33,643 nucleotides of DNA from an uncultured Algibacter sp. (GCA_963976905.1 CAXBNH010000001.1:1-33643); one strand, 5' to 3'. Positions 181-23,785 are shown, numbered from the stretch's first letter. The notes: generated from the letters alone by a model not told the origin. Numbers and translations are program-made.

Positions 181-480
181 ATGGACGAAATATTAGAACG
201 TCTCAAAATTATTGAGAAACATGTTTTAGACAGAAACATTATTGTAAAAAATGTATTGAGCTTTAAGGAAGCATGTAAGTTTTTGGAATTATCGCAATCC
301 CATTTATATAAGCTTACAAGTACAGGAGCCATTCCTCATTATAAACCGAATGGTAAGAAAATTTATTTTAATCGTGTTGAGTTAGAAGACTGGTTATTAA
401 GTAACCGTGTTGATTCACAAGATGAAATCGAACAGCAAGCTGCCGATTACTTAATTAAGAAAGGAGCGGTAAGGTTATGA
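181..480 (+). CDS. Excisionase-like helix-turn-helix DNA-binding protein (HTH_17 / MerR-like)
   Basis: 99 aa with VLSFKEACKFLELSQSHLYKLTSTGAIPHYKPNGKKIYFNRVELEDWL, the typical Xis-like winged HTH pattern. Confidence 0.9.
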   Translation: MDEILERLKIIEKHVLDRNIIVKNVLSFKEACKFLELSQSHLYKLTSTGAIPHYKPNGKKIYFNRVELEDWLLSNRVDSQDEIEQQAADYLIKKGAVRL

Positions 481-773
481 CTGAAATAATCGATCTACTC
501 TTGGTACTCTCACAAGAAATTAAGGACATTAAAACACGTATCGAATTGTTAAGGCAATCGAGAGTTGAACGCCTAAAAGATTCGTGGTTAGACAATCAAG
601 ATGTTTTGCAAATGCTTCATATTAGCAAGCGAACACTGCATACATTACGAGCGAACGGAACATTGCCATTCAGTAGAATAAAAGGCAAGTTTTATTACAA
701 GGTTTCCGATATAGAGCAATTGCTTCATGATAACTACTACAACCATAATTTCAACTGTCATGGAAATAAGTAG
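477..773 (+). CDS. Second excisionase-like HTH_17 protein
   Basis: 98 aa with WLDNQDVLQMLHISKRTLHTLRANGTLPFSRIKGKFYYKVSDI. ATGA overlap with the upstream gene. Confidence 0.88.
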   Translation: MTEIIDLLLVLSQEIKDIKTRIELLRQSRVERLKDSWLDNQDVLQMLHISKRTLHTLRANGTLPFSRIKGKFYYKVSDIEQLLHDNYYNHNFNCHGNK

Positions 774-1668
774 AGAAGCAATATTAGACAAAACACATTA
801 TGACTTAAAGATTTATGCCTATGTGTTAAGACAGTATTATCCTGAAACAACAGTCCTTTCCTTAAAGGGAAGGGACTGCGGGATAACCCGAAATCCTTTT
901 AATGGTGGCAAAGAAACCTTACGTATTCATTTAGATGGAGTAATTGCAAGCCATAGAGATACAGAATTAGAAACTTTCAAAGGTGATGTTTTCGATTTTG
1001 CGCAATACCATTTTAAGCTTATCAATGAAGATGATCTCTTGCTGAAAATTAACCAAGAGTTGCATCTGAATTTAGAAGTAAAAGAAAAAGATGATTTAGA
1101 ATGGCTTAATGGTCCAGATGATACCTGGTATGCAAACTGTAGCTTCTTCAAAGCGCCAGTTCGCAATGTGTTTCCTTCGGAAACTTTGCGATTACATCAA
1201 ATATTTGAATTAATCACAAGTGATAAATACAAAGGGATTACAGAGAAATTAAGAGCGATTACCAATGTTAAGCAAGCACGTAAACTCAAAGCGAATCGCT
1301 TTGATTACGTCACGTTTTCAGGGGTTTTTGAAAAACGCAACGACAGTAGTTTATTACAGCACTCTAATTTATTGACCATTGATTTTGATCATTTGGAAAA
1401 TCTACAAGAGTTAAAAACGCAACTGTTAAACGATGAATACTTTGAAACCGAGATGCTGTTTACGTCACCATCTGGCGATGGCTTGAAATGGATTATCAGA
1501 ATTGACATTGAAGAAGTATCGCATTCAGAATATTTCATAGCTGTAGCAAATTACATAAAACACACCTATAATATAGAGGTTGACCAGTCAGGTAAAGACG
1601 TGTCCAGAGTGTGTTTTCTACCATACGATCCAACAGCCTTTTTACATAAAAGACACCAAGCATTATGA
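760..1668 (+). CDS. BT4734/BF3469-like protein (VirE N-terminal-like domain), element replication module
   Basis: ORF track gives 727; ATG 760 (MEISREAIL) is the more likely start. Motifs YVTFSGVF, LTIDFDH, LFTSPSGDGLKW and DQSGKDVSRVCFLPYDP are typical of the family. Confidence 0.82.
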   Translation: MEISREAILDKTHYDLKIYAYVLRQYYPETTVLSLKGRDCGITRNPFNGGKETLRIHLDGVIASHRDTELETFKGDVFDFAQYHFKLINEDDLLLKINQELHLNLEVKEKDDLEWLNGPDDTWYANCSFFKAPVRNVFPSETLRLHQIFELITSDKYKGITEKLRAITNVKQARKLKANRFDYVTFSGVFEKRNDSSLLQHSNLLTIDFDHLENLQELKTQLLNDEYFETEMLFTSPSGDGLKWIIRIDIEEVSHSEYFIAVANYIKHTYNIEVDQSGKDVSRVCFLPYDPTAFLHKRHQAL

Positions 1669-3404
1669 GTAAAATATTCAACCCAAAAGATTGGTTAGAA
1701 GTTCCAAAAGAGCAACTTAAACCAACAAGCAACACGGCAACAACAAAGGTTGTTGCTGTTGCTGATAACGACATAGAATCTTATATAAAAGCTATTGAAC
1801 AAGCTGGAACAGATATTACAGGAAATTATGCTACTTGGCGAGATTTAGGTTTTGCTTTAGCTGAAGAATATGGAGAAATAGGCAGAGACTATTTTCACAG
1901 AATTAGTAAAGCCTATGTAGGTTATGAATCCAAAGAGTGTGATGAACAATTCAGCAAATGTTTAAAAGCTAAAGGTCACGGAATAGGCATTGCAACTTTT
2001 TATCACCATGCACATCAAGCAGGAATAAGGCTATTAAAAAACGATATTCAAATACGGCAACAAAAAGAGGAAAAGGAACAAGTACAAGAAACAATGCCAA
2101 CTATTCCCGAAAAGGTATATAATTCACTCCCACAGTTTTTACAACAAGTTGTAAACCCTGCGAGTAGCCCAGAAGAAAAAGATGTTTTATTGTTAGGGGC
2201 TTTAACAGCTTTTAGTGCCTGCTTCCCTAAATTATTCGGAGTATACGACCAACGAAAAGTATATAGCAACTTATACCTATTTGTAACGGCAGCTGCATCT
2301 GCAGGTAAAGGCAGGCTCAACCAAATTAAAAATTTGGTAGATCCTGTGCATAAATTAAAACGAGAGCAAGCCAAAGTATTAAAGCAACAATTTAACACGG
2401 AAAAAGTGACTTATAATATGAATAAAGGCAAAGATGAAAACCTCGAAAAACCAGGAAAACCACCTGAACGTATGTTGTTTATTCCTGCCAATAATAGTGT
2501 AACAGGTGTGTATCAATTAATATCAGATAATGATGGTAGAGGATTAATTTTTGAAACCGAAGGCGATACCTTGGCACAAGCCTTTAAAAGCGATTACGGC
2601 AATTATAGCGATGGGTTTCGTAAAGCCTTTCATCATGAAACCATAAGCTATTACCGACGGACAGATCGCGAATATGTAGATATTGAAAAACCTTGTTTGT
2701 CAACTGTATTGTCAGGTACACCTAAACAAGTGGCAACTTTAATTCCAAATGCCGAAAATGGTTTGTTCAGTCGCTTTATGTTCTACTATATGAATATCAA
2801 ACCGACTTGGAAGAATGTATTCCAAAATTGCAACAGTGTAGGTTTAGATGATTATTATTCACAGTTAGGCAATGAGTTTTTAGAGCTGTATAAAACACTC
2901 AAGAATAATCCAGAAATAGAAATACGATTAACTGTATCACAGCAAGAGCAATTCAACACCTTTTTTGAATCATTACAAACCAAATATATCAATCTACAGC
3001 CCGAAGAGTATATCGCAACTATTAGACGTTTAGGTCTTATTGCCTTTAGGTTAATGATGCTATTCACAGCATTTCGCATTATGGAAGATGGTGATGTTAA
3101 TCAAGTAAAAGAATGTGAGGGTGTCGATTTTCAAAATGCGCTAACTGTTATTTCCATTTTAGTAAAGCATAGTAGTAAGGTGTTTAATGATTTACCTTTT
3201 GAACAAAAAGCGGTAAAGCGCCTAAATCGTAAAGAGAGCTTTTTAGAAAGCCTACCCGAACAATTCAATAGGCAGGAGTATTTAGATATAGCAACCAAAC
3301 AAAATATACCACATAAAACGGCAGAAGGCTACATCACCAAATTTGTAGAAGCAGGATTATTGCATAGAGAAGCGCACAATAGCTATTCAAATCCTGCAAA
3401 ATAA
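1665..3404 (+). CDS. PriCT-2 domain + DUF3987 (YfjI-like P-loop) primase/helicase-associated protein
   Basis: N-terminal YATWRDLGFALA...GRDYFHRIS...GIGIATFYHHA (PriCT-2). Walker-A-like AAASAGKG, plus FETEGD, LSGTP and NGLFSRF (DUF3987). ATGA overlap with the upstream gene. Confidence 0.85.
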   Translation: MSKIFNPKDWLEVPKEQLKPTSNTATTKVVAVADNDIESYIKAIEQAGTDITGNYATWRDLGFALAEEYGEIGRDYFHRISKAYVGYESKECDEQFSKCLKAKGHGIGIATFYHHAHQAGIRLLKNDIQIRQQKEEKEQVQETMPTIPEKVYNSLPQFLQQVVNPASSPEEKDVLLLGALTAFSACFPKLFGVYDQRKVYSNLYLFVTAAASAGKGRLNQIKNLVDPVHKLKREQAKVLKQQFNTEKVTYNMNKGKDENLEKPGKPPERMLFIPANNSVTGVYQLISDNDGRGLIFETEGDTLAQAFKSDYGNYSDGFRKAFHHETISYYRRTDREYVDIEKPCLSTVLSGTPKQVATLIPNAENGLFSRFMFYYMNIKPTWKNVFQNCNSVGLDDYYSQLGNEFLELYKTLKNNPEIEIRLTVSQQEQFNTFFESLQTKYINLQPEEYIATIRRLGLIAFRLMMLFTAFRIMEDGDVNQVKECEGVDFQNALTVISILVKHSSKVFNDLPFEQKAVKRLNRKESFLESLPEQFNRQEYLDIATKQNIPHKTAEGYITKFVEAGLLHREAHNSYSNPAK

Positions 3405-3446
3405 CAATAAAGGAAATGAAGGATTTAAGGATGTCTTTGTTTTTTC

Positions 3447-3563
3447 GTCAGGCTAAAACCTGACAAAAAATAGAATAAAGTCAGGCTATAACCTTACGTT
3501 TTATTTGTTTTTGTCAGGTTATAGCCTTACATTTGTAGATAATTAGTCAGGCTATAACCTCAC
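3447..3563. promoter_or_regulatory. Four 18-bp imperfect palindromic boxes at exact 33-bp period; probable operator array
   Basis: GTCAGGCTAAAACCTGAC (3447), GTCAGGCTATAACCTTAC (3480), GTCAGGTTATAGCCTTAC (3513), GTCAGGCTATAACCTCAC (3546). The last ends 3 nt before ATG 3567. Confidence 0.8.
3504..3535 (+). promoter_or_regulatory. Bacteroidota sigma-A-type promoter (-33 TTTG / -7 TAnnTTTG) for the mobile mystery A/B operon
   Basis: TTTG at 3504-3507, 20-nt spacer, TACATTTG at 3528-3535. Overlaps box 3. Confidence 0.65.
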
Positions 3564-3566
3564 ATT

Positions 3567-4025
3567 ATGAATAAAAAGAAATTACAATTAGAACAATTAG
3601 GCAGCAAATTAAACGGGTTTAAAGATGCGGTCAAAGTCACGCCACCACCAACAGGTTGGCTCAAAGCGGTAAGGGTGTCATTAGGAATGTCTTTACAGCA
3701 ATTGGCAGATAAATTATCTATTACCAAACAGAGTGTACAAGAAATAGAACAAAGGGAAAAAGAAGGTACTATTACCCTGAATAATCTAAAGGAAACGGCC
3801 AATGCTTTAGATATGCAATTGGTGTACGGTCTCGTACCCAAAGATGGTACGTTAGATGATTTAATAGAGCGAAAAGCCAAAGAATTGGCAATACGCATTG
3901 TGTCAAGAACGTCTAACACAATGAAACTTGAAGATCAAGAAAACTCGAAACAGCGCATTAAAAAAGCGATTGAGGAACGCACGACCATTATTAAAAATGA
4001 AATGCCAAAGATGCTATGGGATTAA
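3567..4025 (+). CDS. Mobile mystery protein A (XRE-family HTH, TIGR02612-like)
   Basis: 152 aa with PPPTGWLKAVRVSLGMSLQQLADKL...EQREKEGTITL...ALDMQLVYGLVP...TMKLEDQ and C-terminal LWD. Confidence 0.92.
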   Translation: MNKKKLQLEQLGSKLNGFKDAVKVTPPPTGWLKAVRVSLGMSLQQLADKLSITKQSVQEIEQREKEGTITLNNLKETANALDMQLVYGLVPKDGTLDDLIERKAKELAIRIVSRTSNTMKLEDQENSKQRIKKAIEERTTIIKNEMPKMLWD

Positions 4026-4612
4026 ATTTGGAGTACATCGATGGGCAAACACCTATCGATGAAGAAGAAAAAGAAGGCTTGCTCATAGAAACCATATCCA
4101 CTAAAGGCGAATTGGACGAATTCGAGCAACTCAATATCGAGGAAGCTTTGCAGTGGGTGTTTGCTAAAAAATTCAAACCCAAACAGGTGTTCATAGAGAA
4201 ATTTATTTGTGACTTACATAAGCGTATGTATGGCAATGTGTGGGCGTGGGCTGGGACATTCAGAAAAACAGAAAAAAACATAGGGGTTAAGAGTTATCTA
4301 ATCCCAATGCAGTTAAAAGCGCTTTGTGATGATACACTGTTTTGGATAGAAAACGAAACCTATCCACCAGAAGAAATCGCTATTTACTTTAAACACCGTT
4401 TAGTAAGCATCCACTGTTTCCCTAATGGAAATGGACGCCATAGTAGGCTAATGGCAGATATTATTATCGAAAAACTATTTGGCAAAGAACCCTTTTCTTG
4501 GGGTGCAGCAAATCTCTCTAAAGATAGCGATACACGTAAAGCGTATCTTAAAGCAGTAAAACAAGCCGATGGAAATGAATACCAACCCTTATTGGACTTT
4601 GCAGTTTCTTAA
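4016..4612 (+). CDS. Mobile mystery protein B (Fic-domain protein, TIGR02613-like)
   Basis: 198 aa with N-terminal GQTPIDEEEKEGL and Fic motif HCFPNGNGRHSR. Overlaps mystery protein A by 10 nt. Confidence 0.92.
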   Translation: MGLNLEYIDGQTPIDEEEKEGLLIETISTKGELDEFEQLNIEEALQWVFAKKFKPKQVFIEKFICDLHKRMYGNVWAWAGTFRKTEKNIGVKSYLIPMQLKALCDDTLFWIENETYPPEEIAIYFKHRLVSIHCFPNGNGRHSRLMADIIIEKLFGKEPFSWGAANLSKDSDTRKAYLKAVKQADGNEYQPLLDFAVS

Positions 4613-8940: not shown

Positions 8941-10698
8941 GTGAATACATATATATTAGGGATTTCTGCATTTTATCATGATTCAGCCGCATGTTTAATA
9001 AAAAATGGTAAATTACTTTCTGCAGCACAAGAAGAACGATTTTCTAGAATTAAACACGATAAGTCTTTTCCTAATAAAACAATTGAATTTTGTTTAAAGT
9101 CCAATAATCTTTTAATTTCAGATATTGATTTAATTGTTTTTTATGAAAAGCCATTTATTAAGTTTGATCGTATTATCAATACACTAATAAATCAAGCCCC
9201 ATTTACATTCGATTTGTTTAGAAAAACATTAATGTCTTGGTTAAAGAATAAGTTATGGGTCTCAAGTATTATTAAAGACGAGTTAAATTATACTGGAGAG
9301 ATTGTTTATAGCGAACATCATGAAGCACATGCAGCTGGTAGTTTTTTTACATCTCCTTTTTCAGAAGCTGTAATTGTTACTATTGATGGTGTAGGAGAAA
9401 AAGCGTGTACATCAATTTCAATAGGAAAAGATAATAAAGTAGAAATTATTAAAGAACAACATTATCCCCACTCAATAGGGTTGTTGTATTCTGCATTTAC
9501 CCAATATTGTGGTTTTAAAGTTAATTCTGGCGAGTATAAATTAATGGGCTTAGCACCTTACGGAAAGCCTATATATAAGCAACTCATATTAGATAATATT
9601 GTTAGTTATGATAACTCAGGTTTAGTTAATTTAAATTTGACTTATTTTTCTTTTGAAAAAGGAAAATCTACAATAAACTCAAAGTTTTGTGAAATTTTTG
9701 GAAAGAAACAAAGAAAGTTAGATGACAAAATGGAGGACTTTTATTGTGACATTGCTTGTTCTATTCAGGCTGTAATTGAAGATATTATCTACCAAATATT
9801 AATTCATGCTAAAGAATTAACAGGCTTAAACAATCTATGTCTTTCTGGCGGTGTTGCTTTAAATTGTAAGGCAAATGGAGAACTTTTAGAGAAAAACATA
9901 TTCAATAACATATGGGTTCAGCCAGCATCTGGAGATTCTGGGTGTTCTCTCGGTGCGGCATATATTGGATGGAATCATCATTTAAAAAATGATAGAATAT
10001 ATTTAAAAGATTCTTTAAATGACCAAGCCTATTTAGGATCTTCATATAATAATGAGGCCATAGAAAAGTTTTTAAAAGTCTATAATCTAGCTTATGAGAA
10101 ATTAGATAATGTTTCGCTTTGTGATATGGTTTCTTCAGCTTTACAGCAAAGACAAATTGTTGGCTGGTTTCAAGATGAAATGGAATTTGGCCCAAGAGCT
10201 TTAGGACATAGAAGTATATTGGCAAGCCCTTTATTTGAAGACATGAAGAAACATGTTAATTTAAATATTAAATTTAGGGAAGGTTTTAGGCCATTTGCCC
10301 CCATAGTACTTGAAGAAGACTGTAACGACTGGTTTGATATGAAACAGATTCTTTCAAAATACATGTTGTTTACAGTTAAGAGTGATAAGAAAAACACAAT
10401 TCCATCATGTATTCATGAAGATAATACTGCAAGAGTTCAAACTCTAAACAAGCAAGAAAATCCTTTGTTACATGAATTAATTACTAACTTTAAATCAAAA
10501 ACAAATTGTCCTGTTTTAATTAATACGTCCTTTAATGTAAGGGGAGAACCTATTGTTGAATTACCATTAGATGCTTTAAGATGTTTCTTTCAAACAAAAA
10601 TGAATCTATTGGTTTTAGGGAATTTTGTTTTAACAAAATCAGATAATTTGAAAGTAGATGAACGTTTAACCGTAAATCAGAATTATGAATTGGATTAA
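8941..10698 (+). CDS. O-carbamoyltransferase, CmcH/NodU family (SxtI-like)
   Basis: 585 aa with ILGISAFYHDSAA, AAQEERFSR, EHHEAHAA, TIDGVGE, SGEYKLMGLAPYG, GGVALNC, EFGPRALGHRS, KFREGFRPFAP and INTSFNVRGEPIV. Confidence 0.96.
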   Translation: MNTYILGISAFYHDSAACLIKNGKLLSAAQEERFSRIKHDKSFPNKTIEFCLKSNNLLISDIDLIVFYEKPFIKFDRIINTLINQAPFTFDLFRKTLMSWLKNKLWVSSIIKDELNYTGEIVYSEHHEAHAAGSFFTSPFSEAVIVTIDGVGEKACTSISIGKDNKVEIIKEQHYPHSIGLLYSAFTQYCGFKVNSGEYKLMGLAPYGKPIYKQLILDNIVSYDNSGLVNLNLTYFSFEKGKSTINSKFCEIFGKKQRKLDDKMEDFYCDIACSIQAVIEDIIYQILIHAKELTGLNNLCLSGGVALNCKANGELLEKNIFNNIWVQPASGDSGCSLGAAYIGWNHHLKNDRIYLKDSLNDQAYLGSSYNNEAIEKFLKVYNLAYEKLDNVSLCDMVSSALQQRQIVGWFQDEMEFGPRALGHRSILASPLFEDMKKHVNLNIKFREGFRPFAPIVLEEDCNDWFDMKQILSKYMLFTVKSDKKNTIPSCIHEDNTARVQTLNKQENPLLHELITNFKSKTNCPVLINTSFNVRGEPIVELPLDALRCFFQTKMNLLVLGNFVLTKSDNLKVDERLTVNQNYELD

Positions 10699-11095
10699 AA
10701 CAATTTTGGAAAAGGTTTTGGAAACTAGTAGATTGCCAAAAAAGCAAAAAGAGTTTGGATATTTATTGTCAATCGTATTTTTTATTACTTTAGGTTTATC
10801 AATTTATAAAAATGGATTCTTATTAAATCCAGTCCAAATTTTTATTATTGTAGGTTTAATATTAATTTTACTTATTACTTTTACAGTAGAATCCATTTTA
10901 TTGCCTTTTTTGATTTTATGGCTTTTAATAGGTGAATTTCTAGGGTTTATCACAAGCTTTTTAATAATGGCAGTTGTTTATTTCATGCTTTTTTCACCTA
11001 TATCTCTTATTTTGAAATTGTTCAGAAAAGAAAAAACATACAAGGCTGAATGGAAAATGGTTACTAGAAAAATAGATTATAAAAAACTAAGTTAA
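10685..11095 (+). CDS. SxtJ-like small membrane protein
   Basis: 136 aa with KEFG followed by 3-4 hydrophobic segments and a W..IGE.LG...S..I..VVYF..FSP pattern. Lies directly after the carbamoyltransferase. Confidence 0.8.
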   Translation: MNWIKTILEKVLETSRLPKKQKEFGYLLSIVFFITLGLSIYKNGFLLNPVQIFIIVGLILILLITFTVESILLPFLILWLLIGEFLGFITSFLIMAVVYFMLFSPISLILKLFRKEKTYKAEWKMVTRKIDYKKLS

Positions 11096-11101
11096 TAAAT
11101 T

Positions 11102-11260
11102 ATGAGTAAGTACGAAACGCTAAAGCAGTTAGGTTCTTTTTTACTAGAACAAAAAAAATTTTGGTTAATACCAATTATAATTGTTTTAGTCCTTTTAATG
11201 TTTTTAGTTCTTTTTGCAGAGAATTCAGTTATAGCACCATTTGTTTACACACTATTTTAA
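11102..11260 (+). CDS. DUF5989 / SxtK-like 52-aa single-pass membrane peptide (missed by the ORF track)
   Basis: Manual translation MSKYETLKQLGSFLLEQKKFWLIPIIIVLVLLMFLVLFAENSVIAPFVYTLF*, with the KKxWLxP...APFxYTLF family signature. It fills the gap between the SxtJ-like and SGNH genes. Confidence 0.9.
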   Translation: MSKYETLKQLGSFLLEQKKFWLIPIIIVLVLLMFLVLFAENSVIAPFVYTLF

Positions 11261-11269
11261 TTAAATTAA

Positions 11270-12271
11270 ATGCTGTTTTTAAACAAAATTTGCAAATTAA
11301 CAATCAAGACGATAATTATAGTTTTTTTGACGTTATGTCTATTTGAAATGTGTTACAGATATAATGTAATAGATTTTTATAGAGCCCAGAGTCAAGGTTT
11401 AAATACAAAAAAAGACCTTGAAGATAGAAATGTAGATTTAATGGTATTTGGTGATTCATTTTCTGCGACATCCAAAGAGATTAATTATGTGGATATGCTG
11501 CGTAAGAACGAAACAGATTTTTCAATTTTAAACTTTAGTGTGCCAGGGTTTGGCATTAGACAAATAAATACATTTGCAAAAAAAAAAATAAAAAAACATA
11601 AACCTAAGGCAATATTATATCAAGTATATGTTGGAAATGATTTGATAGATGTCAATCACTTGTGGAATTTAAAAGAATTTTCCTTTGCCAGAAACTTATA
11701 TTGGGAAGCTTCAGATTATTTTTTAAGTTTAGGCTATTTGAATCAACGATTATCCGTTCTTAATGTAAAGAAAGAAATTAGGCTTCCAGGAATGTTAAAG
11801 AAAGAATTTGATGGCGATTTGTATGATACTCGTACCAAACGTTTTTTAAAAAACGATACTTATTATTTAGACAATACATTACTATTAAACGGAGATTTTA
11901 AAAAGCGTTATCTGTCTTGGTTAATTCATATGGAATCTTTTTTAGATATTGTCCCTAAAGATGTACCAGTATACATACTATGGATTCCTCATCAAGCACA
12001 AGTCAACGATTATTATTATGCAAACATCAAAAAACTAGGTGCCATGTTTCAAAATAAGGCTGCCATTCAACAACAAGATTATCCTCTTTTTAGTAAAGCA
12101 AAAAAAGATTTAAGTACTTATAAAAATGTTAAACATTTAAATCCTTTAACCTTTTTTCGAGATAAAGATACTTTAAATTCAAGATTGTATTTTGTAAATG
12201 ACCCACATATTAATTTGACTGGAAACATAATTTTAAGTACATATTTACAAAATGTAATATCATTCAATTAA
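11270..12271 (+). CDS. Membrane-anchored SGNH/GDSL-family protein (AlgJ/AlgX-like)
   Basis: N-terminal TM segment. Blocks FGDSFS, NFSVPGFG, YVGNDL and DPH. Confidence 0.85.
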   Translation: MLFLNKICKLTIKTIIIVFLTLCLFEMCYRYNVIDFYRAQSQGLNTKKDLEDRNVDLMVFGDSFSATSKEINYVDMLRKNETDFSILNFSVPGFGIRQINTFAKKKIKKHKPKAILYQVYVGNDLIDVNHLWNLKEFSFARNLYWEASDYFLSLGYLNQRLSVLNVKKEIRLPGMLKKEFDGDLYDTRTKRFLKNDTYYLDNTLLLNGDFKKRYLSWLIHMESFLDIVPKDVPVYILWIPHQAQVNDYYYANIKKLGAMFQNKAAIQQQDYPLFSKAKKDLSTYKNVKHLNPLTFFRDKDTLNSRLYFVNDPHINLTGNIILSTYLQNVISFN

Positions 12272-13440
12272 TTTTCTTTTAATTCTTCTGTAGTTTCTAT
12301 TGTTTTTGTCCTTAAAACAGATTTCAAATAGGTAAACATTTTTTTAGCAACTAATTGATTTCCCGGTTCGCCAGTATGGCAGAAATCTACATAAATAGTT
12401 TTTTCTTCAGCGTCAAACACATCACTAATATCAATAAAGGTACTGTCACGAATCATTAATGAATCTTTCCTAACAGATGAGTAAGATAAGCTGTATAGAT
12501 TTTTATAGTACTCATAGTCTTTATAATATCCTTTTTCAGTTTCTGTCAAATTCTTTTTCGAATAAATATTTGGTTGCATAAAATTAAAGACTTTAAACCC
12601 ATATTCATTCTCTAGACTTTTTGAAATTTTCACGAAGCCAATATAATTTTCTGCAATAGACATTGCTAATTTATCCGATCGTTTACCTAATTGTTTGTAC
12701 GGTGAATTTGTAAAAATTTTTAGTGCTACGGAAGTAGCAAATCGATACAAATTACTTGACTCTACTACTAGTTTAATACGTTTTTTATAATCATGCGCTA
12801 TTTTAAATTCATTTTTTCTATTATAAGCATTGGTTGGTGTTCCAGCTTCATTGTTTTGATGTGCAGATATGACTTCGTTTACCCCATCGTAAAAAACCAC
12901 AATGTCTGGAATGTTATTTTTAATTAACTCTCGCTGAAACTGAATATTCTCTGTAGCACGCGTATAGCCATGACAACCAAAATTGGTAATTTCTACATTT
13001 TGATTAGGAAATGAGGACTCAATCAATTTGGATAATTCTGAAGGAATAGTATATTCGTCCCGTGCACCTGAACTATACATAGTAGAACCTCCAAAACAAA
13101 ATATTTTCAAGGCAGTTGTAGAATCTTTTAAACTAAGATTTAATGTTTTTCGGGTTCCGTTTCCGTAAATCGTATTATGTTTGCCATTCATCGGTTTGAA
13201 GCGATAATGTAAATATGGCTCCCATAACATGTCTTGTTGACGAAGTTCTCTATAAATTTCTTTGACTGTTGTGTCATCCAAATTACCAAATGCTCCAGAG
13301 GAAATTAGGCGTTCAGTATTTGTGTCAATACCACTTTCGTCATTATAATTATAAAAAACACCCAAACAAATTTCTAGCAAAAGAAAAAGGATTAAAATAT
13401 TTCTAAATAAAATGGAAACGAATTTAAGTTTGCTTTTCAC
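12268..13440 (-). CDS. Membrane-anchored SGNH-family protein (GGST block-I variant)
   Basis: N-terminal TM segment. Blocks FGGSTM, NFGCHGY, DGVNE and DFCH. Confidence 0.85.
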   Translation of the reverse strand: MKSKLKFVSILFRNILILFLLLEICLGVFYNYNDESGIDTNTERLISSGAFGNLDDTTVKEIYRELRQQDMLWEPYLHYRFKPMNGKHNTIYGNGTRKTLNLSLKDSTTALKIFCFGGSTMYSSGARDEYTIPSELSKLIESSFPNQNVEITNFGCHGYTRATENIQFQRELIKNNIPDIVVFYDGVNEVISAHQNNEAGTPTNAYNRKNEFKIAHDYKKRIKLVVESSNLYRFATSVALKIFTNSPYKQLGKRSDKLAMSIAENYIGFVKISKSLENEYGFKVFNFMQPNIYSKKNLTETEKGYYKDYEYYKNLYSLSYSSVRKDSLMIRDSTFIDISDVFDAEEKTIYVDFCHTGEPGNQLVAKKMFTYLKSVLRTKTIETTEELKEN

Positions 13441-17354: not shown

Positions 17355-18875
17355 TTATTCTGAATAAAAACCTTCAATTTCGGGTTGACGGTATTTCCAA
17401 ATTTTGTGCAACACTTTAATTTCATAAGGAAATTTATACCACCCATATTTAAAACGATAGCCCGAAAATAATTTCAAAATCCACTTTTTATACCCTTTAA
17501 TTCTAAAATCGGAAGCCGTTGGGTAATAGCCATTTAGAACGGTTTCAAAATTTCGAATCGTATCTACCATATACGGTTTTAACCAAGGTGTCAATGGGTT
17601 TTTTCGTAGATCAAACTTTTCCCAACTTGGTTGAATCCATTCTTCCAATTTCTCTGGAAAGGCAAAACCTGCTTCTGTAATTTGCTTATACAACTCAGAA
17701 CCTTCAGTTGGTACTGGACTGTACAAGTAAATGATAATTTCTGCATCTGGATTGATTGTTTTGATTTCACGAATAAAATTAATATCCCACAAAATCTGTT
17801 CGTAGACTTTCTTTTCTTCAGGCCCAGGCATACCTAATACAAACGATAATTCAGGAACAATATCTACCGCTTTCATGCGCTTTACAAAATCCTTAATCAT
17901 CTGCCCCGATTGTGTGCCGCCTTTATTCATCTGCTTTAATACTTCATCGTTTCCAGTTTCTGCGCCCAAAAATATCATGCGGCAACCCGCTTTACGCATA
18001 TAGTGCAAATCTTCATCCGAATATTTATTAATCGTATCAATTCTGCCCTCTCCCCACCATTCAATATTATCATCTATCACAAGTTTTGAAAATTCTAAGA
18101 CGCGTTTTTTAGAAGTGAAAAAGTTATTATCATGAAATTCAACGGCATCAATTTGATATTTTTCTTTAAAAAATTCAATGTCTTTATAAATGGTTGTAGC
18201 TGCTTTGGCTTTCCATTTAGCATTATAAATAGGCACTACAGCGCAAAAAGAACAAGTAAACGGACATCCCATACTAGAATGATAGGCAAACGTTTGTTGT
18301 CCCATAAAGGTTTTTGCTAAATAATTTTCTAGCGGATAAAATGTATTAAAATATTCGTACGGATACGATGGCAATGTATCTTGATCGAGCAAGGCTTCTT
18401 TCATAGTTTGTACAATCTTGCCCTCTGCATCTTTAAAAATTAAGTTGCGAATCAGTGTTAACTTCTCATCACTTTTTCCTTCTAATACATCTAATAATAA
18501 TGGAAATGTTTTGTCGCCAGGACCATTGATAATATAATCGATATATCCGGAATTCATACATGCTTTATACTGGTTCGACGCAAAATAACCGCCCCAAATA
18601 TTGATAGCATCAGGATATAATTCTTTGATTTTTTTGGCATAAGGAATGGCTTGTTTCAATTGTGGGCCAGGCATCACTGTCAAACAAAAATATTTGTATT
18701 CGCCTGTGGCAAAATATCCTGAAATCTTTTCCCAAGGATCGGTTTCCATATTGCCGTCTACAAAAACATAATCATACTTTCTATGAATTGCCGCACCAAT
18801 TTGAATAATCGTATTTGGTAAACGGTGTTTTGCATTGGCACTTCTTGGATTGAATATGATGATTTTATTTCCCAT
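17355..18875 (-). CDS. Cobalamin-binding-domain radical SAM protein (class B type)
   Basis: N-terminal B12-binding-like domain (IWGGYFAS, YIINGPGD), CxxxCxxC as GCPFTCSFC, FHDNNF, GAETG and FVLGMP. Confidence 0.92.
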   Translation of the reverse strand: MGNKIIIFNPRSANAKHRLPNTIIQIGAAIHRKYDYVFVDGNMETDPWEKISGYFATGEYKYFCLTVMPGPQLKQAIPYAKKIKELYPDAINIWGGYFASNQYKACMNSGYIDYIINGPGDKTFPLLLDVLEGKSDEKLTLIRNLIFKDAEGKIVQTMKEALLDQDTLPSYPYEYFNTFYPLENYLAKTFMGQQTFAYHSSMGCPFTCSFCAVVPIYNAKWKAKAATTIYKDIEFFKEKYQIDAVEFHDNNFFTSKKRVLEFSKLVIDDNIEWWGEGRIDTINKYSDEDLHYMRKAGCRMIFLGAETGNDEVLKQMNKGGTQSGQMIKDFVKRMKAVDIVPELSFVLGMPGPEEKKVYEQILWDINFIREIKTINPDAEIIIYLYSPVPTEGSELYKQITEAGFAFPEKLEEWIQPSWEKFDLRKNPLTPWLKPYMVDTIRNFETVLNGYYPTASDFRIKGYKKWILKLFSGYRFKYGWYKFPYEIKVLHKIWKYRQPEIEGFYSE

Positions 18876-19849
18876 TACTTATTAAATATAATATATCGAT
18901 TGGCTAAAATATAACTTGAAAGCTTCTCAGCAAAGATTTGATTCGCTTTTCCGTTTGGATGCGGATCTAATTCGTTTACAATGTATGTAAAAAGGTTCTT
19001 ATCTTGAAAAAACTTAGAAACATCTACAAAGCCTAAATTATTTTTTTTAGCTAAAGTTTGAATTTGTGCAACGCGAACCGAATCGTAAACGAGATCCATA
19101 TAAAAAACGAGTCCTTTGCTATTATTTTTGGTTAAAATATCTTGAAAGTCTTGAAACTGTTCGTCTATATGCTGTATGTGTTTCGTTTCGTAAACAACAG
19201 GCGTTGGTTCTTTGGCTTTGAGTTTGATACTGAGTAATTTTCTCAAATAGGAATCCCAAAATACATTTTTCTTTGGTTTGATGGTGAAATTGTCTAGTGA
19301 AAAATCTTTTCCAGGTTCATAATGGTCGTTAGAAGCGCAAAATCCAATCACCACTAAATCTGGATGATAACTTAATACATTTCGTTCTAAAATCGTTTTG
19401 TAATTTGTTAATGCGAAGCCAGAAACGCCAAAATTAAAGACTTCATAGCTTATATTTGAATCTTGTGTATTCAACATTTTTTCTGTTTGTGTCACGTACA
19501 TTTCGTCTTCAGAAACGCCAGTTCCCATTGTAAAAGAATCGCCTAAAACGGCTATTTTAGGAGCATTAGAATTCACTTCATGATTGCGATCTCGAAACCC
19601 TTCTGCATTTGTGTGAAAATCGACAAGTTTGTATTTCGTGTCTAAATTAGGCAATAATTCGTATGTCAATTTATCAGAATCAGAATATTTTATCAAACCT
19701 GAATTATCTAAGATGCTAAATGAATTTGTTCTTGTATACGAAAACGCTGCACCACCAAAAAAGTAAATTCTAGCCATCATTTCACCCAGAAAAGTACTGA
19801 GTAAAAGCCCAATTCCAATTGAAATAATTTTAAACTTTAGTTGTTTCAT
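18875..19849 (-). CDS. Membrane-anchored SGNH/GDSL-family protein
   Basis: N-terminal TM segment. NAEGFRD, LGDSFTMG, NFGVSGF, ASND and DPHPN. Its TAA overlaps the radical SAM ATG (TAATG). Confidence 0.87.
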   Translation of the reverse strand: MKQLKFKIISIGIGLLLSTFLGEMMARIYFFGGAAFSYTRTNSFSILDNSGLIKYSDSDKLTYELLPNLDTKYKLVDFHTNAEGFRDRNHEVNSNAPKIAVLGDSFTMGTGVSEDEMYVTQTEKMLNTQDSNISYEVFNFGVSGFALTNYKTILERNVLSYHPDLVVIGFCASNDHYEPGKDFSLDNFTIKPKKNVFWDSYLRKLLSIKLKAKEPTPVVYETKHIQHIDEQFQDFQDILTKNNSKGLVFYMDLVYDSVRVAQIQTLAKKNNLGFVDVSKFFQDKNLFTYIVNELDPHPNGKANQIFAEKLSSYILANRYIIFNK

Positions 19850-19938
19850 GTAGGTTTAAATTCGCCATAAAGATACAGAAGTATCAAAGGAATTCTAATT
19901 TTTTTCAATGCGAATAAAGAATCTTATCGTAGACATAG

Positions 19939-19946
19939 TATATTTG
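19939..19946 (+). promoter_or_regulatory. Candidate -7 promoter element for the SGNH/GT-C pair
   Basis: TATATTTG matches TAnnTTTG 30 nt upstream of the 19977 start, in a divergent intergenic gap. Confidence 0.5.
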
Positions 19947-19976
19947 TTTCCAACAGATGTCAACTAAAAAACTATT

Positions 19977-21098
19977 TTGTTTAAAAAATATATTTTAAAA
20001 CCGATAAAAAATCTCATCATCATTTTTGGGATCACATTTGTGTTGCTCGAAATTGTATTGGCAATTTACATTCGCGTTGCAGAAATTAAGATAGAATTAC
20101 CGACGTATACTTTTCAAAATACACAGAATTTTTGGTATGATTTAGATGAAAATTTTGGCACATTACATTTGCCAAATGATATGTATCGACAAAAAAAGTA
20201 TTGTTTTGATGTAGTATATACATCTAATTCTAAAGGACTTCGTGATATAGAACGTGAAGTAAACGCAGAAACTAAACGTGTGGTTGCTTTAGGCGATTCG
20301 TTCACAGAAGGAATAGGCGTTAATGTTGAAAATCGATTGACTAATTTGCTTGAACAAGAAACCAACATTCCACATTTGAATTTTGGTTTGGCAGGAAATT
20401 TTGGGTCTACACAATATTTGATGATGTACGAAACCTTAGCGAAAGCATATACACACGAAGCCGTTTTGGTCAGTATTCTGCCTTCTAATGATTTTATTGA
20501 CGATGATTACGAAATCAATTTACGAGTTGGCGGCAATCGCTATCAACCATTTTTAGATGGAATTTATCCCAATTATAAAGTGGTTTATTATGCAGATAGC
20601 ATTCAAAAATCGAAAGCAACCCCACAAAGACAACATTTTGTGTACAAGACTTTGAAGAATTTCACCTATTCCTATAATATGTGTCGCTACCTGCGTGCGA
20701 TGCAAAAAGTGCAAACGATCCCGCAGAATAAATTGTTGGCAGCATCCAAAGTGCCAAGTTATTTTAATTATTCTGAGAAGCAATTCAATCGGATTCGCTA
20801 TTCGATAGAGAGCATTAAAAAAAAAGCAGGTAATCGTTCCGTAATGGTGTATAGTATTCCAATTGAAAAAGAAATCAAAGCCTATCGAGAACACGGTAAA
20901 AATCCGCTTGGAACGAGATTAAAAGCAGTTTGTGACAGTATCAATGTAGAATATTTAGACTTATTACCACAAACCGAAAGCTTTAGTACAGAACAATACG
21001 AAGCCTTATTTTTGTCATGTGACGGACATTGGAGCGAAGTTGGAAACGCGTTCGCAAAAGCACAAATCGAATCGTATTTTACGTATTATAAAAAATGA
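19977..21098 (+). CDS. Membrane-anchored SGNH/GDSL-family protein
   Basis: N-terminal TM segment. NSKGLRD, LGDSFTEG, NFGLAG, PSNDF and DGHWS. Confidence 0.87.
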   Translation: MFKKYILKPIKNLIIIFGITFVLLEIVLAIYIRVAEIKIELPTYTFQNTQNFWYDLDENFGTLHLPNDMYRQKKYCFDVVYTSNSKGLRDIEREVNAETKRVVALGDSFTEGIGVNVENRLTNLLEQETNIPHLNFGLAGNFGSTQYLMMYETLAKAYTHEAVLVSILPSNDFIDDDYEINLRVGGNRYQPFLDGIYPNYKVVYYADSIQKSKATPQRQHFVYKTLKNFTYSYNMCRYLRAMQKVQTIPQNKLLAASKVPSYFNYSEKQFNRIRYSIESIKKKAGNRSVMVYSIPIEKEIKAYREHGKNPLGTRLKAVCDSINVEYLDLLPQTESFSTEQYEALFLSCDGHWSEVGNAFAKAQIESYFTYYKK

Positions 21099-22729: not shown

Positions 22730-23785
22730 CTATTTTTTAATATTTATAGTGTCAAATAAATATTGACCAATAATAGAGTGGCCTTTTTCATTAATATGTA
22801 AATCTTGTTCCCAAAACACTTTTTCTGTAGCTTGTTGTAATGGCGCTTTTAAATTGAAGTTAGTAATGTTTTCAGAATTCAACCATTTAATAAACTCATT
22901 TGTTAGCTTTTCATTAGCATGAATTTCATCAGGGCTTAATTTAAATAATGACTGTATTTTAGATTTAAACTCGGCATTAGTTTCTATTTTTGATGGCAAT
23001 AATGTAATTATAAGCTCAATGTTTTCTTTTTCACACAAGTCCTTAATTGCTATCATATATTTTTTAGCAATAGATAAAGCTTTTTCTTTTTCGTTTGGAA
23101 AAAATTTAAAATATAAGGATTGATCAATACCTTGTGACATGGCAATTGGTGCCTTCCTAAAAGTCAATATTCTTTTATAAAGTCGAATACTTGTGTTTTT
23201 ACTCACATTAAAAATACTAGTTCTATCATCTTCAAAAAGAAATGTCTCTCTAAAATCATTTCCTATAAATATATTAATAAGATATATGTCTGGCTTTAAA
23301 TAGCTGTATTTTTTAAGGAATCCTAAATAGTTTCTAAACGTGTAATATGCTGTTCCTCCATTGATACAGTTATAATTAACAATAGTATCGGATGCATTTA
23401 GCTTGTCTTCCCAAACATTTATAAACGATTGTGGATTATGTTTCAAAACACCATCTGTATGTGAATCGCCTGTAACTAAAATACGATATTCGTTTTGTTT
23501 TTTTTCAACAATATCATCATCTTCTCTAAACCCTAAATTGTTTGTTTTTCGCTCAGTAGTAAGTTTTTGTTGAGGTGTTCCCCAATTATCATAAATTTGA
23601 ATGTTGGGAATATGTACAAACATGGCTATAGAATCTTTTTGGAGATAGGCAACTTGATTTGGTTCTGACATTTCAAAAAATGAATTGATTCTATTTACAG
23701 ACACAAAATGGTTTATCACTCCTACAATAAAGAATAAACCTATAATTATACAAAAATTAATAACAATCAACCGCAAATATTTCAT
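22730..23785 (-). CDS. Membrane-anchored SGNH/GDSL-family protein
   Basis: N-terminal TM segment. NNLGFRE, TGDSHTDG, IGNDF and DLHINEKGH. Confidence 0.85.
   Translation of the reverse strand: MKYLRLIVINFCIIIGLFFIVGVINHFVSVNRINSFFEMSEPNQVAYLQKDSIAMFVHIPNIQIYDNWGTPQQKLTTERKTNNLGFREDDDIVEKKQNEYRILVTGDSHTDGVLKHNPQSFINVWEDKLNASDTIVNYNCINGGTAYYTFRNYLGFLKKYSYLKPDIYLINIFIGNDFRETFLFEDDRTSIFNVSKNTSIRLYKRILTFRKAPIAMSQGIDQSLYFKFFPNEKEKALSIAKKYMIAIKDLCEKENIELIITLLPSKIETNAEFKSKIQSLFKLSPDEIHANEKLTNEFIKWLNSENITNFNLKAPLQQATEKVFWEQDLHINEKGHSIIGQYLFDTINIKK

What the first reader, a model, noticed from the sequence alone, without database searches (positions are those of the whole stretch)
8941..12271. Candidate tyrosine-peptide carbamoyl relay: carbamoyltransferase - SxtJ-like - FVYTLF micropeptide - SGNH
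Seen: a tightly packed operon containing a 52-aa peptide missed by the ORF track, with a basic KK before a single TM segment and C-terminus PFVYTLF, followed by a membrane-anchored SGNH protein. Established: in the DltB/DltX/DltD and related PatA/PatC/PatB and AlgI/AlgJ pathways, a C-terminal F-x-Y-x-x-F motif carries the acyl group on its Tyr from an MBOAT to an extracytoplasmic SGNH-like enzyme. The same gene order is known as sxtI-J-K-L, where J and K have no defined function. Inference: the peptide is a DltX analogue, and the cytoplasmic carbamoyltransferase plus SxtJ-like protein replace the MBOAT to export carbamoyl groups for envelope polymer modification. How a cytoplasmic enzyme would load a predicted outward-facing Tyr is unresolved.
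Basis: partly seen in the sequence, partly recalled or inferred. Interest (0 to 1): 0.85.

Follow-up and report, generated by a model that had tools for sequence, protein, structure and literature searches.

The report
Tyrosine microprotein carbamoyl export relay
A tiny, very widespread membrane protein of unknown function ends in the same tyrosine tail that other bacteria use to pass chemical groups across the membrane, and it likely carries carbamoyl groups from an enzyme inside the cell to esterase-like enzymes predicted to face outward, which would be an undescribed way of decorating cell-surface sugars.

Summary
Confirmed: a tightly packed operon encodes a CmcH/NodU carbamoyltransferase, SxtJ, a 52-aa DUF5989 (SxtK-type) peptide ending PFVYTLF, and a membrane-anchored SGNH protein.

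Findings:
- The Tyr is kept in 50 of 50 peptides found without using the motif.
- In 301 genomes, 114 of 115 with the peptide have the transferase. 113 of 115 have this SGNH family, against 18 of 186 without the peptide.
- J/K-linked transferases form one clade with a conserved hydrophobic patch.
- Nested in that clade are soluble SGNH–transferase fusions (28 proteins) that lost both the membrane anchor and the patch. The one complete genome checked lacks J and K.
- A complex model gave weak support only (0.58 against 0.00 for the best control, no contacts given).

Best reading (about 0.6): an MBOAT-free, DltX-like relay that exports carbamoyl groups.

Against: how a cytoplasmic enzyme reaches an outward tail is unexplained; the SGNHs keep the hydrolase-type block II Gly; SGNH lies within 5 kb in only 29 of 64 loci.

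The gene order (sxtIJKL) is known. I found no paper with this mechanism. This scan proposed the same idea twice before on other DNA.

The parts
8941..10698 (+). CmcH/NodU/TobZ-family O-carbamoyltransferase (SxtI-type), 585 aa, soluble; likely member of the J/K-linked clade
   Evidence: Pfam PF02543 and PF16861. Profile hits NovN, GdmN and TobZ structures. H126, H130, D149, D332 and K444 are invariant in 54 of 54 J/K-linked homologues. It falls in the 44-row clade at SH-aLRT 91, on a long branch.
9148..9252 (+). Residues 70-104 of the transferase: conserved hydrophobic helical patch, inferred docking site for J/K or the membrane
   Evidence: In J/K-linked enzymes: K74 52/54, F75 54/54, P87 52/54, W100 53/54. 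In soluble SGNH fusions: T74 28/28 and W100 0/28 (S in 27). Poorly aligned or absent in K-less enzymes.
10685..11095 (+). SxtJ-family membrane protein, 136 aa; likely scaffold
   Evidence: PF19588. Four hydrophobic stretches. All-helical model, pLDDT 91. Invariant Trp plus conserved F-G, P, R and D, but no His among residues conserved at 70%.
11102..11260 (+). DUF5989 / SxtK-type microprotein, 52 aa: basic KK, one TM (20-38), C-terminal F-V-Y-T-L-F; Tyr49 (11246-11248) is the predicted carbamoyl carrier
   Evidence: PF19451. Tyr 167/167 among HMM hits, 190/190 in loci (partly selected by the motif), and 50/50 in the motif-blind test.
11270..12271 (+). TM-anchored SGNH protein, 333 aa, with Ser63, Asn124, Asp311 and His313; predicted outward-facing acceptor/transferase
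   Evidence: Motifs read from the sequence. Model and fold search. Scores E 4.4e-34 with the family profile, which includes it.
12268..13440 (-). Second TM-anchored SGNH of the same family (GGS type), convergent with the operon; possible further acceptor
   Evidence: Weak Lipase_GDSL_2 hit; TM 10-28; family profile.
18875..19849 (-). Third TM-anchored SGNH paralogue
   Evidence: Lipase_GDSL_2 E 5.9e-11; TM 8-26.
19977..21098 (+). Fourth TM-anchored SGNH paralogue, directly before a GT-C (PMT_2) membrane glycosyltransferase gene
22730..23785 (-). Fifth TM-anchored SGNH paralogue
   Evidence: Lipase_GDSL E 2.6e-6; TM 6-24.

Best explanation
The operon encodes a carbamoyltransferase, SxtJ, a Tyr-tailed 52-residue membrane peptide and a membrane-anchored SGNH protein, and these likely form an MBOAT-free relay that would move a carbamoyl group across the inner membrane onto a probable cell-envelope glycan.

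Steps:
1. The transferase makes carbamoyl-AMP from carbamoyl phosphate and ATP (established for the TobZ/NodU family; recalled; active-site residues are conserved here).
2. It docks on SxtJ and the peptide through its conserved hydrophobic patch, residues 70-104 (inferred).
3. It carbamoylates Tyr49 in its N-terminal Kae1-like domain (inferred). The donor has no carrier arm, so the hydrophobic 12-residue tail must dip to the cytoplasmic side and return, probably along SxtJ. This is the least supported step.
4. The aryl carbamate on Tyr49 carbamoylates the SGNH serine (inferred from DltX/DltD and PatA/PatB).
5. The SGNH passes the group to a hydroxyl outside the cytoplasm (inferred).

One I-J-K exporter per genome would feed several SGNH paralogues with different targets; this window has five.
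For: (a) Motif. F-x-Y-x-x-F at the extreme C-terminus is the shown acyl-shuttle motif of DltX and PatA (PMC12148441).

(b) Tyr invariance. Sixty loci were fetched through SxtJ and the peptide was sought with a model of residues 1-40 only. It was found in 52 of 60, two of them cut by the locus end. Tyr 50 of 50, first Phe 49 of 50, last Phe 47 of 50 (3 Tyr). Also 167 of 167 in the HMM set from a family with 5,852 representatives.

(c) Genome co-occurrence in the same 301 genomes. Peptide in 115. Transferase in 114 of these. SGNH family (E<=1e-12) in 113 of 115, against 18 of 186 peptide-less genomes, or 5 of 186 at a post hoc cut of 1e-18. Of the two misses, G086 has an SGNH between the transferase and the peptide at E 2.9e-11, and G128 has a broken peptide gene and no J, transferase or SGNH hit.

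(d) Loci. Within 5 kb on both sides (n=64): J 62, transferase 60, SGNH 29, MBOAT 1. SGNH genes are sometimes inserted between the core genes. In 3 of 14 loci where the peptide lies away from the transferase, it still sits beside an SGNH. For 8 loci with no SGNH within 9 kb, 7 genomes hold strong family members elsewhere.

(e) Tree. J/K-linked transferases form one clade, and 23 of 25 K-less ones lie outside it (quick tree).

(f) Fusions. 28 soluble SGNH-transferase fusion proteins have no TM and keep Ser and His 28/28. The six placed in the tree nest inside the J/K clade. They lost the hydrophobic patch (W100 0/28 against 53/54). Genome G274 (100% complete) has the fusion and no J or peptide. 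This is what a bridge across a membrane predicts.

(g) SGNH sidedness. Ser 103/103 and His 102/103. 82 of 109 have a TM before the nucleophile, and the charge bias is N-in in 60 of 82, the reverse in 12.

(h) Complex model (transferase 1-352 + J + SGNH + peptide as partner): score 0.58, best of 3 controls 0.00, including the control with the transferase replaced. Verdict 'weak support'. The mark was reached by 116 of 157 solved complexes and 2 of 215 mismatches, but at <=0.60 by only 18 of the 157 and by both mismatches. Runs agree in >=37% of contacts; partner pLDDT >=57; no contacts given.

(i) Papers. In L. wollei sxtL is absent, sxtI is truncated and carbamoylated products are lacking (PMC3037375 passages). 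CgnD gave the longest single-stretch PDB match to the SGNH profile (positions 52-343 of 352). It occurs in the crocagin cluster that has a carbamoyltransferase, and no CgnD-type entry is listed for the four clusters without one (PMC10070186 section 9 and Suppl. Table 5).

(j) Chemistry. Aryl carbamates are classic carbamoylating agents of serine hydrolases (own knowledge).
Against: (a) Topology. KK before the TM predicts the tail outside, while the transferase has no TM. SxtJ has no conserved His like the MBOAT base. No loading path is shown.

(b) Tyr49 is not uniquely invariant: W21, P24 and F47 are as conserved, so a structural role is possible.

(c) Block II Gly is kept in 40 of 61 SGNHs and in this one. 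PMC12148441 links its replacement to transferase activity in PatB and OatA. Block V Asp is present in only 38 of 61.

(d) The only studied relative, CgnD, is soluble and was shown to cleave a peptide, though slowly and without measurable binding. SxtL is annotated as a decarbamoylase.

(e) In the saxitoxin pathway a PAPS-dependent enzyme is postulated to sulfate the carbamoyl group, which suggests a cytoplasmic carbamoylated product there.

(f) G287 (98% complete) has a clade transferase, J and an SGNH but no peptide.

(g) SGNH is absent within 5 kb in 35 of 64 loci.

(h) The genomes are related, and the SGNH profile was built from peptide loci, so the co-occurrence counts overstate independence. 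J/K loss in fusion genomes rests on one genome: 1 of 401 family genomes had the fusion.
Confidence: 0.6

Rival explanations
1. J and the peptide only anchor or activate the transferase on the cytoplasmic face, where it carbamoylates a lipid-linked sugar or small molecule directly. The Tyr tail is structural, and the outward SGNH later removes or edits the group, as proposed for SxtL.
For: The docking patch and the weak complex score fit an anchor equally well. Block II Gly is hydrolase-like. CgnD hydrolyses a peptide. The literature treats SxtI/J/K as one complex and SxtL as a decarbamoylase. No topology problem arises.
Against: It does not explain an exact terminal F-x-Y-x-x-F whose Tyr is never Phe. 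A soluble transferase fused to an intact decarbamoylase would be a futile cycle, yet 28 such fusions keep both active sites. An optional editing enzyme is not expected in 114 of 115 genomes.
Confidence: 0.22
2. The Tyr relay is real but stays on the cytoplasmic side: the peptide is a re-entrant hairpin, the SGNH domains face inward, and the acceptor is a membrane-bound intermediate or a cytoplasmic metabolite.
For: It removes the loading problem. Soluble SGNH partners exist (fusions, CgnD). The tail is hydrophobic. 12 of 82 anchored SGNHs show the reverse charge bias. Postulated cytoplasmic sulfation in the saxitoxin pathway fits.
Against: 60 of 82 SGNH anchors have an N-in bias, and this window's SGNH has three Lys within its first 13 residues. 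If all parts share one compartment, a membrane shuttle is hard to justify, and the soluble fusion manages without it.
Confidence: 0.12
3. The peptide is an end substrate or a pseudo-substrate regulator of the transferase, not a carrier.
For: Strong conservation of the tail. The peptide gene is kept alone in 11 of 14 loci picked for lying away from the transferase. HypF-type enzymes carbamoylate a protein C-terminus (recalled; weak HypF hit).
Against: It gives no reason for the link to the SGNH family or for the fusions.
Confidence: 0.06

Closest known systems
DltB-DltX-DltD (teichoic acid D-alanylation)
   Same: Single-TM microprotein with a terminal F-x-Y-x-x-F, paired with an anchored SGNH-type enzyme (PMC12148441; Schultz 2023 known only through that citation).
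   Different: No MBOAT, no DltA/DltC carrier. The partner is a soluble carbamoyltransferase plus SxtJ. No DltX Pfam match is shown for the 101 peptides. Found across Gram-negative phyla.
PatA/PatB and other MBOAT-SGNH pairs (AlgI/J, WssH/I)
   Same: Tyr-carried group handed to an SGNH serine. This genome's own MBOAT on contig C305 ends in the same motif.
   Different: There the motif is the MBOAT's own tail and a His in the membrane funnel loads it. Here the tail is a separate peptide, SxtJ has no conserved His, and most of the SGNHs keep block II Gly.
sxtI-sxtJ-sxtK-sxtL of saxitoxin clusters (sxtJ/K/L-like genes also in suomilide clusters)
   Same: Same Pfam families and gene order (PMC2679770, PMC2684587, PMC10157211 passages).
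   Different: J and K are listed as 'unknown' and L as a decarbamoylase. No other saxitoxin-pathway family was seen among the window's 31 scanned proteins; the context is glycan tailoring. I did not compare Sxt sequences directly.
TobZ / NovN / GdmN / NodU O-carbamoyltransferases
   Same: Two-domain fold and active-site residues.
   Different: These act directly on soluble acceptors (recalled). The J/K-linked clade has its own conserved hydrophobic patch. NodU equivalog score is 152 against a cut-off of 1000.
CgnD with CgnI (crocagin, PDB 8A2N)
   Same: SGNH of this family in a cluster with a carbamoyltransferase.
   Different: Soluble; assigned as a slow leader protease. No J/K is evident in the paper's gene table, but I could not examine that genome.

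Membership tests
DUF5989 / SxtK (PF19451) | Score above the Pfam gathering cut-off | tested here: met
   67.4 bits against 27
SxtJ (PF19588) | Score above the Pfam gathering cut-off | tested here: met
   25.9 against 24.4 bits, marginal; family Trp, F-G and Pro are conserved in the alignment
CmcH/NodU/TobZ carbamoyltransferase | Both Carbam_trans domains with conserved metal and adenylation residues | tested here: met
   the residues' roles in TobZ are recalled
SGNH hydrolase superfamily | Fold plus block I Ser, block III Asn and block V His | tested here: met
   Model and Foldseek; S63, N124 and H313
SGNH O-acyltransferases (PatB/OatA type) | Block II Gly replaced by Ser or Asn | tested here: not met
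   G93 kept here and in 40 of 61 family members; feature taken from PMC12148441
SGNH O-acyltransferases (PatB/OatA type) | Transfer favoured over hydrolysis | not testable with these tools
   Needs an assay
DltX family | Sequence match to the DltX Pfam model | tested here: inconclusive
   No DltX model among the 25 of 30 families shown for 101 members at E<=1; none for the window's own peptide
DltX family | Encoded with an MBOAT (DltB) and carrier protein | tested here: not met
   MBOAT within 5 kb in 1 of 64 loci; none in the window
Tyr acyl-shuttle systems (works-like) | C-terminal F-x-Y-x-x-F with invariant Tyr after a TM helix | tested here: met
Tyr acyl-shuttle systems (works-like) | Partner SGNH with an intact nucleophile on the outer face | tested here: inconclusive
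   Partner and nucleophile met; sidedness rests only on charge bias, 60 of 82
Tyr acyl-shuttle systems (works-like) | Covalent acyl- or carbamoyl-Tyr intermediate | not testable with these tools
   Needs mass spectrometry or labelling

The most novel reading that the evidence does not exclude
SxtI-J-K is a third class of trans-membrane acylation machine beside MBOAT-SGNH and AT3-SGNH. A soluble enzyme loads a microprotein's tyrosine on the cytoplasmic side, the tail then carries an aryl carbamate across the membrane with the help of SxtJ, and a family of SGNH carbamoyltransferases (including SxtL and possibly CgnD, now called hydrolases) installs it. Carbamoylation of envelope glycans would then be common across many bacterial phyla.
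Probability: 0.45. Interest if true: 0.92.

Novelty: new variant of a known kind. Interest (0 to 1): 0.78.

Why it matters
The module is common: 115 of 301 sampled genomes of this phylum carry the peptide, and SxtJ was found in 47 of 121 and 46 of 201 genomes of two other phyla. Yet J and K have had no function since the sxt cluster was described.

If the relay is right:
- It extends the Tyr-shuttle principle from acyl to carbamoyl groups, without an MBOAT.
- It gives a one-residue test (Tyr49Phe, +43 Da).
- It reassigns a large SGNH family from esterase to carbamoyltransferase.
- It predicts an overlooked envelope modification.

The soluble SGNH-transferase fusions give a simple system for testing the chemistry without membranes.

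Tried and rejected
Fusions of the peptide:
- The long ORFs ending in the peptide (L045, L075, L166, L067, L062) are open shadow frames, not fusions.
- C-terminal extensions in 24 of 167 hits are unrelated to each other and are taken as stop-loss errors.
- J-K and transferase-K 'fusions' among the best 120 of 316 longer hits are single-contig records. They were looked at and not relied on.

Structure and sequence searches:
- Fold search of SxtJ gave only generic helical matches, Z<=7.3: uninformative.
- No PDB relative of the peptide (best E 0.56) and no usable ESM Atlas hit.
- The complex job gave no contacts, so 'is the Tyr near the SGNH Ser?' could not be answered.

Tree: only the quick tree finished, and the window's enzyme is on a long branch. 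It used 35 of 65 full-length transferases from L032-L111 and 6 of the 28 fusions.

Other checks:
- A search for more fusion genomes found only G274 among 401.
- MBOAT as the normal partner is rejected.
- A saxitoxin cluster in this window is rejected on gene content.

Literature searches (CC-licensed PMC and bioRxiv only):
- 'DUF5989': 0 papers.
- 'acyl shuttle' + 'carbamoyl': 0.
- 'DltX' + 'carbamoyltransferase': 6 papers, 3 listed, unrelated by title.
- Five-term carbamoyl/periplasm/SGNH search: 2 unrelated.
- 'sxtJ' + 'sxtK': 11 papers; passages of 5 read, none gives a mechanism.
- Schultz 2023 is not held, so I cannot exclude that it or its supplement mentions this family.
- Supplement file 2 of PMC10070186 was unreadable, and bioRxiv supplements are closed.
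Full report
OBSERVATION. The four ORFs are as described: carbamoyltransferase 8941-10698, SxtJ 10685-11095, a 52-aa DUF5989 peptide 11102-11260 and a 333-aa protein 11270-12271, with a 14-nt overlap and gaps of 6 and 9 nt. The peptide has K18-K19, one TM (20-38) and ends PFVYTLF. The last protein has no family hit, but it has a TM (7-25), the G-D-S, N-D and D-x-H motifs and an SGNH fold. Only 8 of 19,408 six-frame ORFs in the genome end in F-x-Y-x-x-F, and one of them is an MBOAT. The closest named relatives are from Lacinutrix. The module is AT-rich and was not found in two complete same-genus genomes.

THE TYROSINE. The family is large: 5,852 representatives at E<=0.001. Tyr49 is kept in 167 of 167 HMM hits and in 190 of 190 peptides from 191 loci, but these sets are biased towards the motif. 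For an unbiased test I fetched 60 loci through SxtJ in two other phyla and sought the peptide with a model of residues 1-40 only. It was found in 52 of 60; two were cut by the locus end. All 50 complete ones have Tyr four residues from the stop; the first Phe varies once and the last three times. Two of the 60 were the centre genomes already seen. W21, P24 and F47 are equally conserved, so invariance alone does not prove chemistry.

WHAT TRAVELS WITH IT. In loci with 5 kb on both sides (64 of the 159 in which the peptide was called), J was present in 62, the transferase in 60, an SGNH in 29 and an MBOAT in 1. The order varies, and SGNH is sometimes inserted in the core. In one sample of 301 genomes, the peptide was in 115, the transferase C-domain in 141 and the SGNH family profile in 131. 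The overlap was 114 of 115 for the transferase and 113 of 115 for SGNH, against 18 of 186 peptide-less genomes (5 at a post hoc 1e-18). G086 has an SGNH just under the cut, and G128 has a broken peptide and none of the partners. Seven of 8 genomes whose locus lacked an SGNH carry strong members elsewhere. The genomes are related and the profile came from peptide loci, so no statistic is claimed. Recurrent neighbours include GT4 (22 loci), bacterial sugar transferase (10), GT2, GT-C, polysaccharide deacetylases and sugar aminotransferases. I did not compare these with a genomic background, so 'envelope glycan' is a likely, not a shown, target.

THE TRANSFERASE CLADE AND THE FUSIONS. I fetched 24 transferase loci from 23 of the 27 peptide-less genomes and added this genome's second copy. 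None of the 25 had the peptide, one had J and five had an MBOAT. In a quick tree of 68 rows, 23 of these 25 fall outside a 44-row clade (SH-aLRT 91; inner node 98) that holds 37 of 38 J/K-linked enzymes. The exception is a second transferase in locus L040. The window's enzyme is on a long branch at the clade's base. One K-less member inside the clade (G287) has J but no peptide, which counts against strict dependence. The other (G274) is an SGNH-transferase fusion without TM. A search found 28 such fusions, all with GDS Ser and His and none with a TM in the first 380 residues. G274 has neither J nor peptide, and it was the only fusion genome among 401. J/K-linked enzymes share a hydrophobic patch at residues 70-104 (W100 53/54, F75 54/54, K74 52/54) that the fusions have replaced (W100 0/28) while keeping the catalytic residues. 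The simplest reading is that transferase and SGNH are consecutive steps, and that J, the peptide, the anchor and the patch are needed only when a membrane separates them.

THE SGNH PARTNER. Ser and His are nearly invariant (103/103, 102/103). 82 of 109 hits had a TM before the nucleophile (17 failed my pattern, 10 showed none), with an N-in charge bias in 60, neutral in 10 and the reverse in 12. Against a transferase role, block II Gly is kept in 40 of 61, whereas PatB and OatA replace it (PMC12148441 Discussion). A carbamoyl-serine hydrolyses far more slowly than an acetyl-serine (own knowledge), so that feature may not be needed, but this is an argument and not a test. The longest single-stretch PDB match is CgnD. 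It was assigned as a slow protease, with no measurable binding and no PMSF labelling (PMC10070186 passages). It occurs in the crocagin cluster that has a carbamoyltransferase, and no CgnD-type entry is listed for the four clusters that lack one.

MODEL. A four-chain prediction with the peptide as partner scored 0.58 against 0.00 for the best of three controls, one of which replaced the transferase domain. The tool calls this weak support: 116 of 157 solved complexes and 2 of 215 mismatches reached the mark, but at <=0.60 only 18 of the 157 and both mismatches did; runs agree in >=37% of contacts, partner pLDDT >=57, and no contacts were given. It fits docking of the peptide with the transferase's N-terminal domain and says nothing on where Tyr49 lies. 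SxtJ is a confident helical model with no informative fold match and no conserved His.

MECHANISM. Shown: gene anatomy, Tyr invariance, co-occurrence, the clade, the fusions and patch loss. Established elsewhere: the F-x-Y-x-x-F shuttle and carbamoyl-AMP chemistry of the TobZ family (recalled). Inferred: docking, carbamoyl-Tyr49, movement of the tail across the membrane, carbamoyl-Ser63, outward sidedness and a glycan target. I put this at 0.6. The main rival, at 0.22, is a membrane anchor with cytoplasmic carbamoylation and an outward decarbamoylase; this is the standing view for sxtIJK/L and fits the postulated PAPS-dependent sulfation of the carbamoyl group. A relay confined to the cytoplasmic face gets 0.12.

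WHAT IS KNOWN. The gene set is known from saxitoxin clusters, with J and K 'unknown', and J/K/L-like genes from suomilide clusters. The joint loss of sxtI and sxtL in L. wollei fits either reading. My searches found no paper linking DUF5989/SxtK to the Tyr shuttle; subscription papers, including Schultz 2023, were not searchable. What I saw of each paper: PMC12148441, abstract, passages and Discussion; PMC10070186, passages, section 9, supplement file 1 parts 6-7 and CgnD passages; PMC2684587, PMC2679770, PMC3037375, PMC10157211, PMC8609519, PMC12300590, PMC13122637 and bioRxiv 10.64898/2026.06.11.731795, passages only. Two earlier notes of this scan reached the same idea on other genomes, and four others describe related Tyr-peptide or CgnD-like systems. 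These are not independent evidence. The fusion, clade and patch results were obtained here.

VERDICT. The feature is real. It is not a member of the DltX/MBOAT systems, but it likely works like them with a different loader. New variant of a known kind; interest 0.78.

Noticed in passing
L205:6016-8868 (-), genome G274; proteins P0168-P0195: Recurrent soluble SGNH-carbamoyltransferase fusion (about 900-970 aa) with Cys in place of the block V Asp (C-x-H, 28/28) and conserved Tyr residues in the SGNH N-terminal extension (Y11 27/28, Y29 27/28, Y34 28/28), possible in-cis carriers.
   Followed up: partly
own genome contig C305:1164-4050; L196, L199, L208, L215: 5 of 25 K-less carbamoyltransferase loci have an MBOAT ending in F-I-Y-F-x-F nearby. 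This may be an alternative pairing, or just neighbouring acetylation genes.
   Followed up: partly
window 12268-33579: Glycan/envelope tailoring region: four more SGNH paralogues, an AT3 acyltransferase, three methyltransferases, two B12 radical-SAM enzymes, GT-C, GT2, GT4, polysaccharide deacetylase, 2OG-Fe oxygenase, amidohydrolase, and two multi-TM proteins without a clear family.
   Followed up: partly
window 8941-12271: GC 28% against 35.6% for the genome. Two complete same-genus genomes lack transferase, J and peptide hits: a patchy, probably acquired module.
   Followed up: yes
window 181-4612: Mobile-element-like block: two HTH_17 proteins, BT4734-like, PriCT-2/DUF3987, HTH_3 and a Fic protein.
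   Followed up: no
L234 (G128:C68): Peptide gene interrupted by a stop and with an altered end, in a genome with no J, transferase or SGNH-family hit: apparent joint loss.
   Followed up: yes
L066:2248-5013; L197:3657-6554: Carbamoyltransferases fused to an NAD-dependent epimerase and, by sequence appearance, to a glycosyltransferase-like domain: links to sugar chemistry.
   Followed up: no
window 18875-21098: Weak hits to NCBIfam LA_2486 and LA_2490 SGNH families of Leptospira; one paper listing mentions LA2489, not read.
   Followed up: no
L037, L038, L050, L070, L077, L218: In Balneolaceae-type and some other loci the SGNH partner is 630-680 aa; the two scanned (L070, L218) carry TPR repeats.
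   Followed up: no
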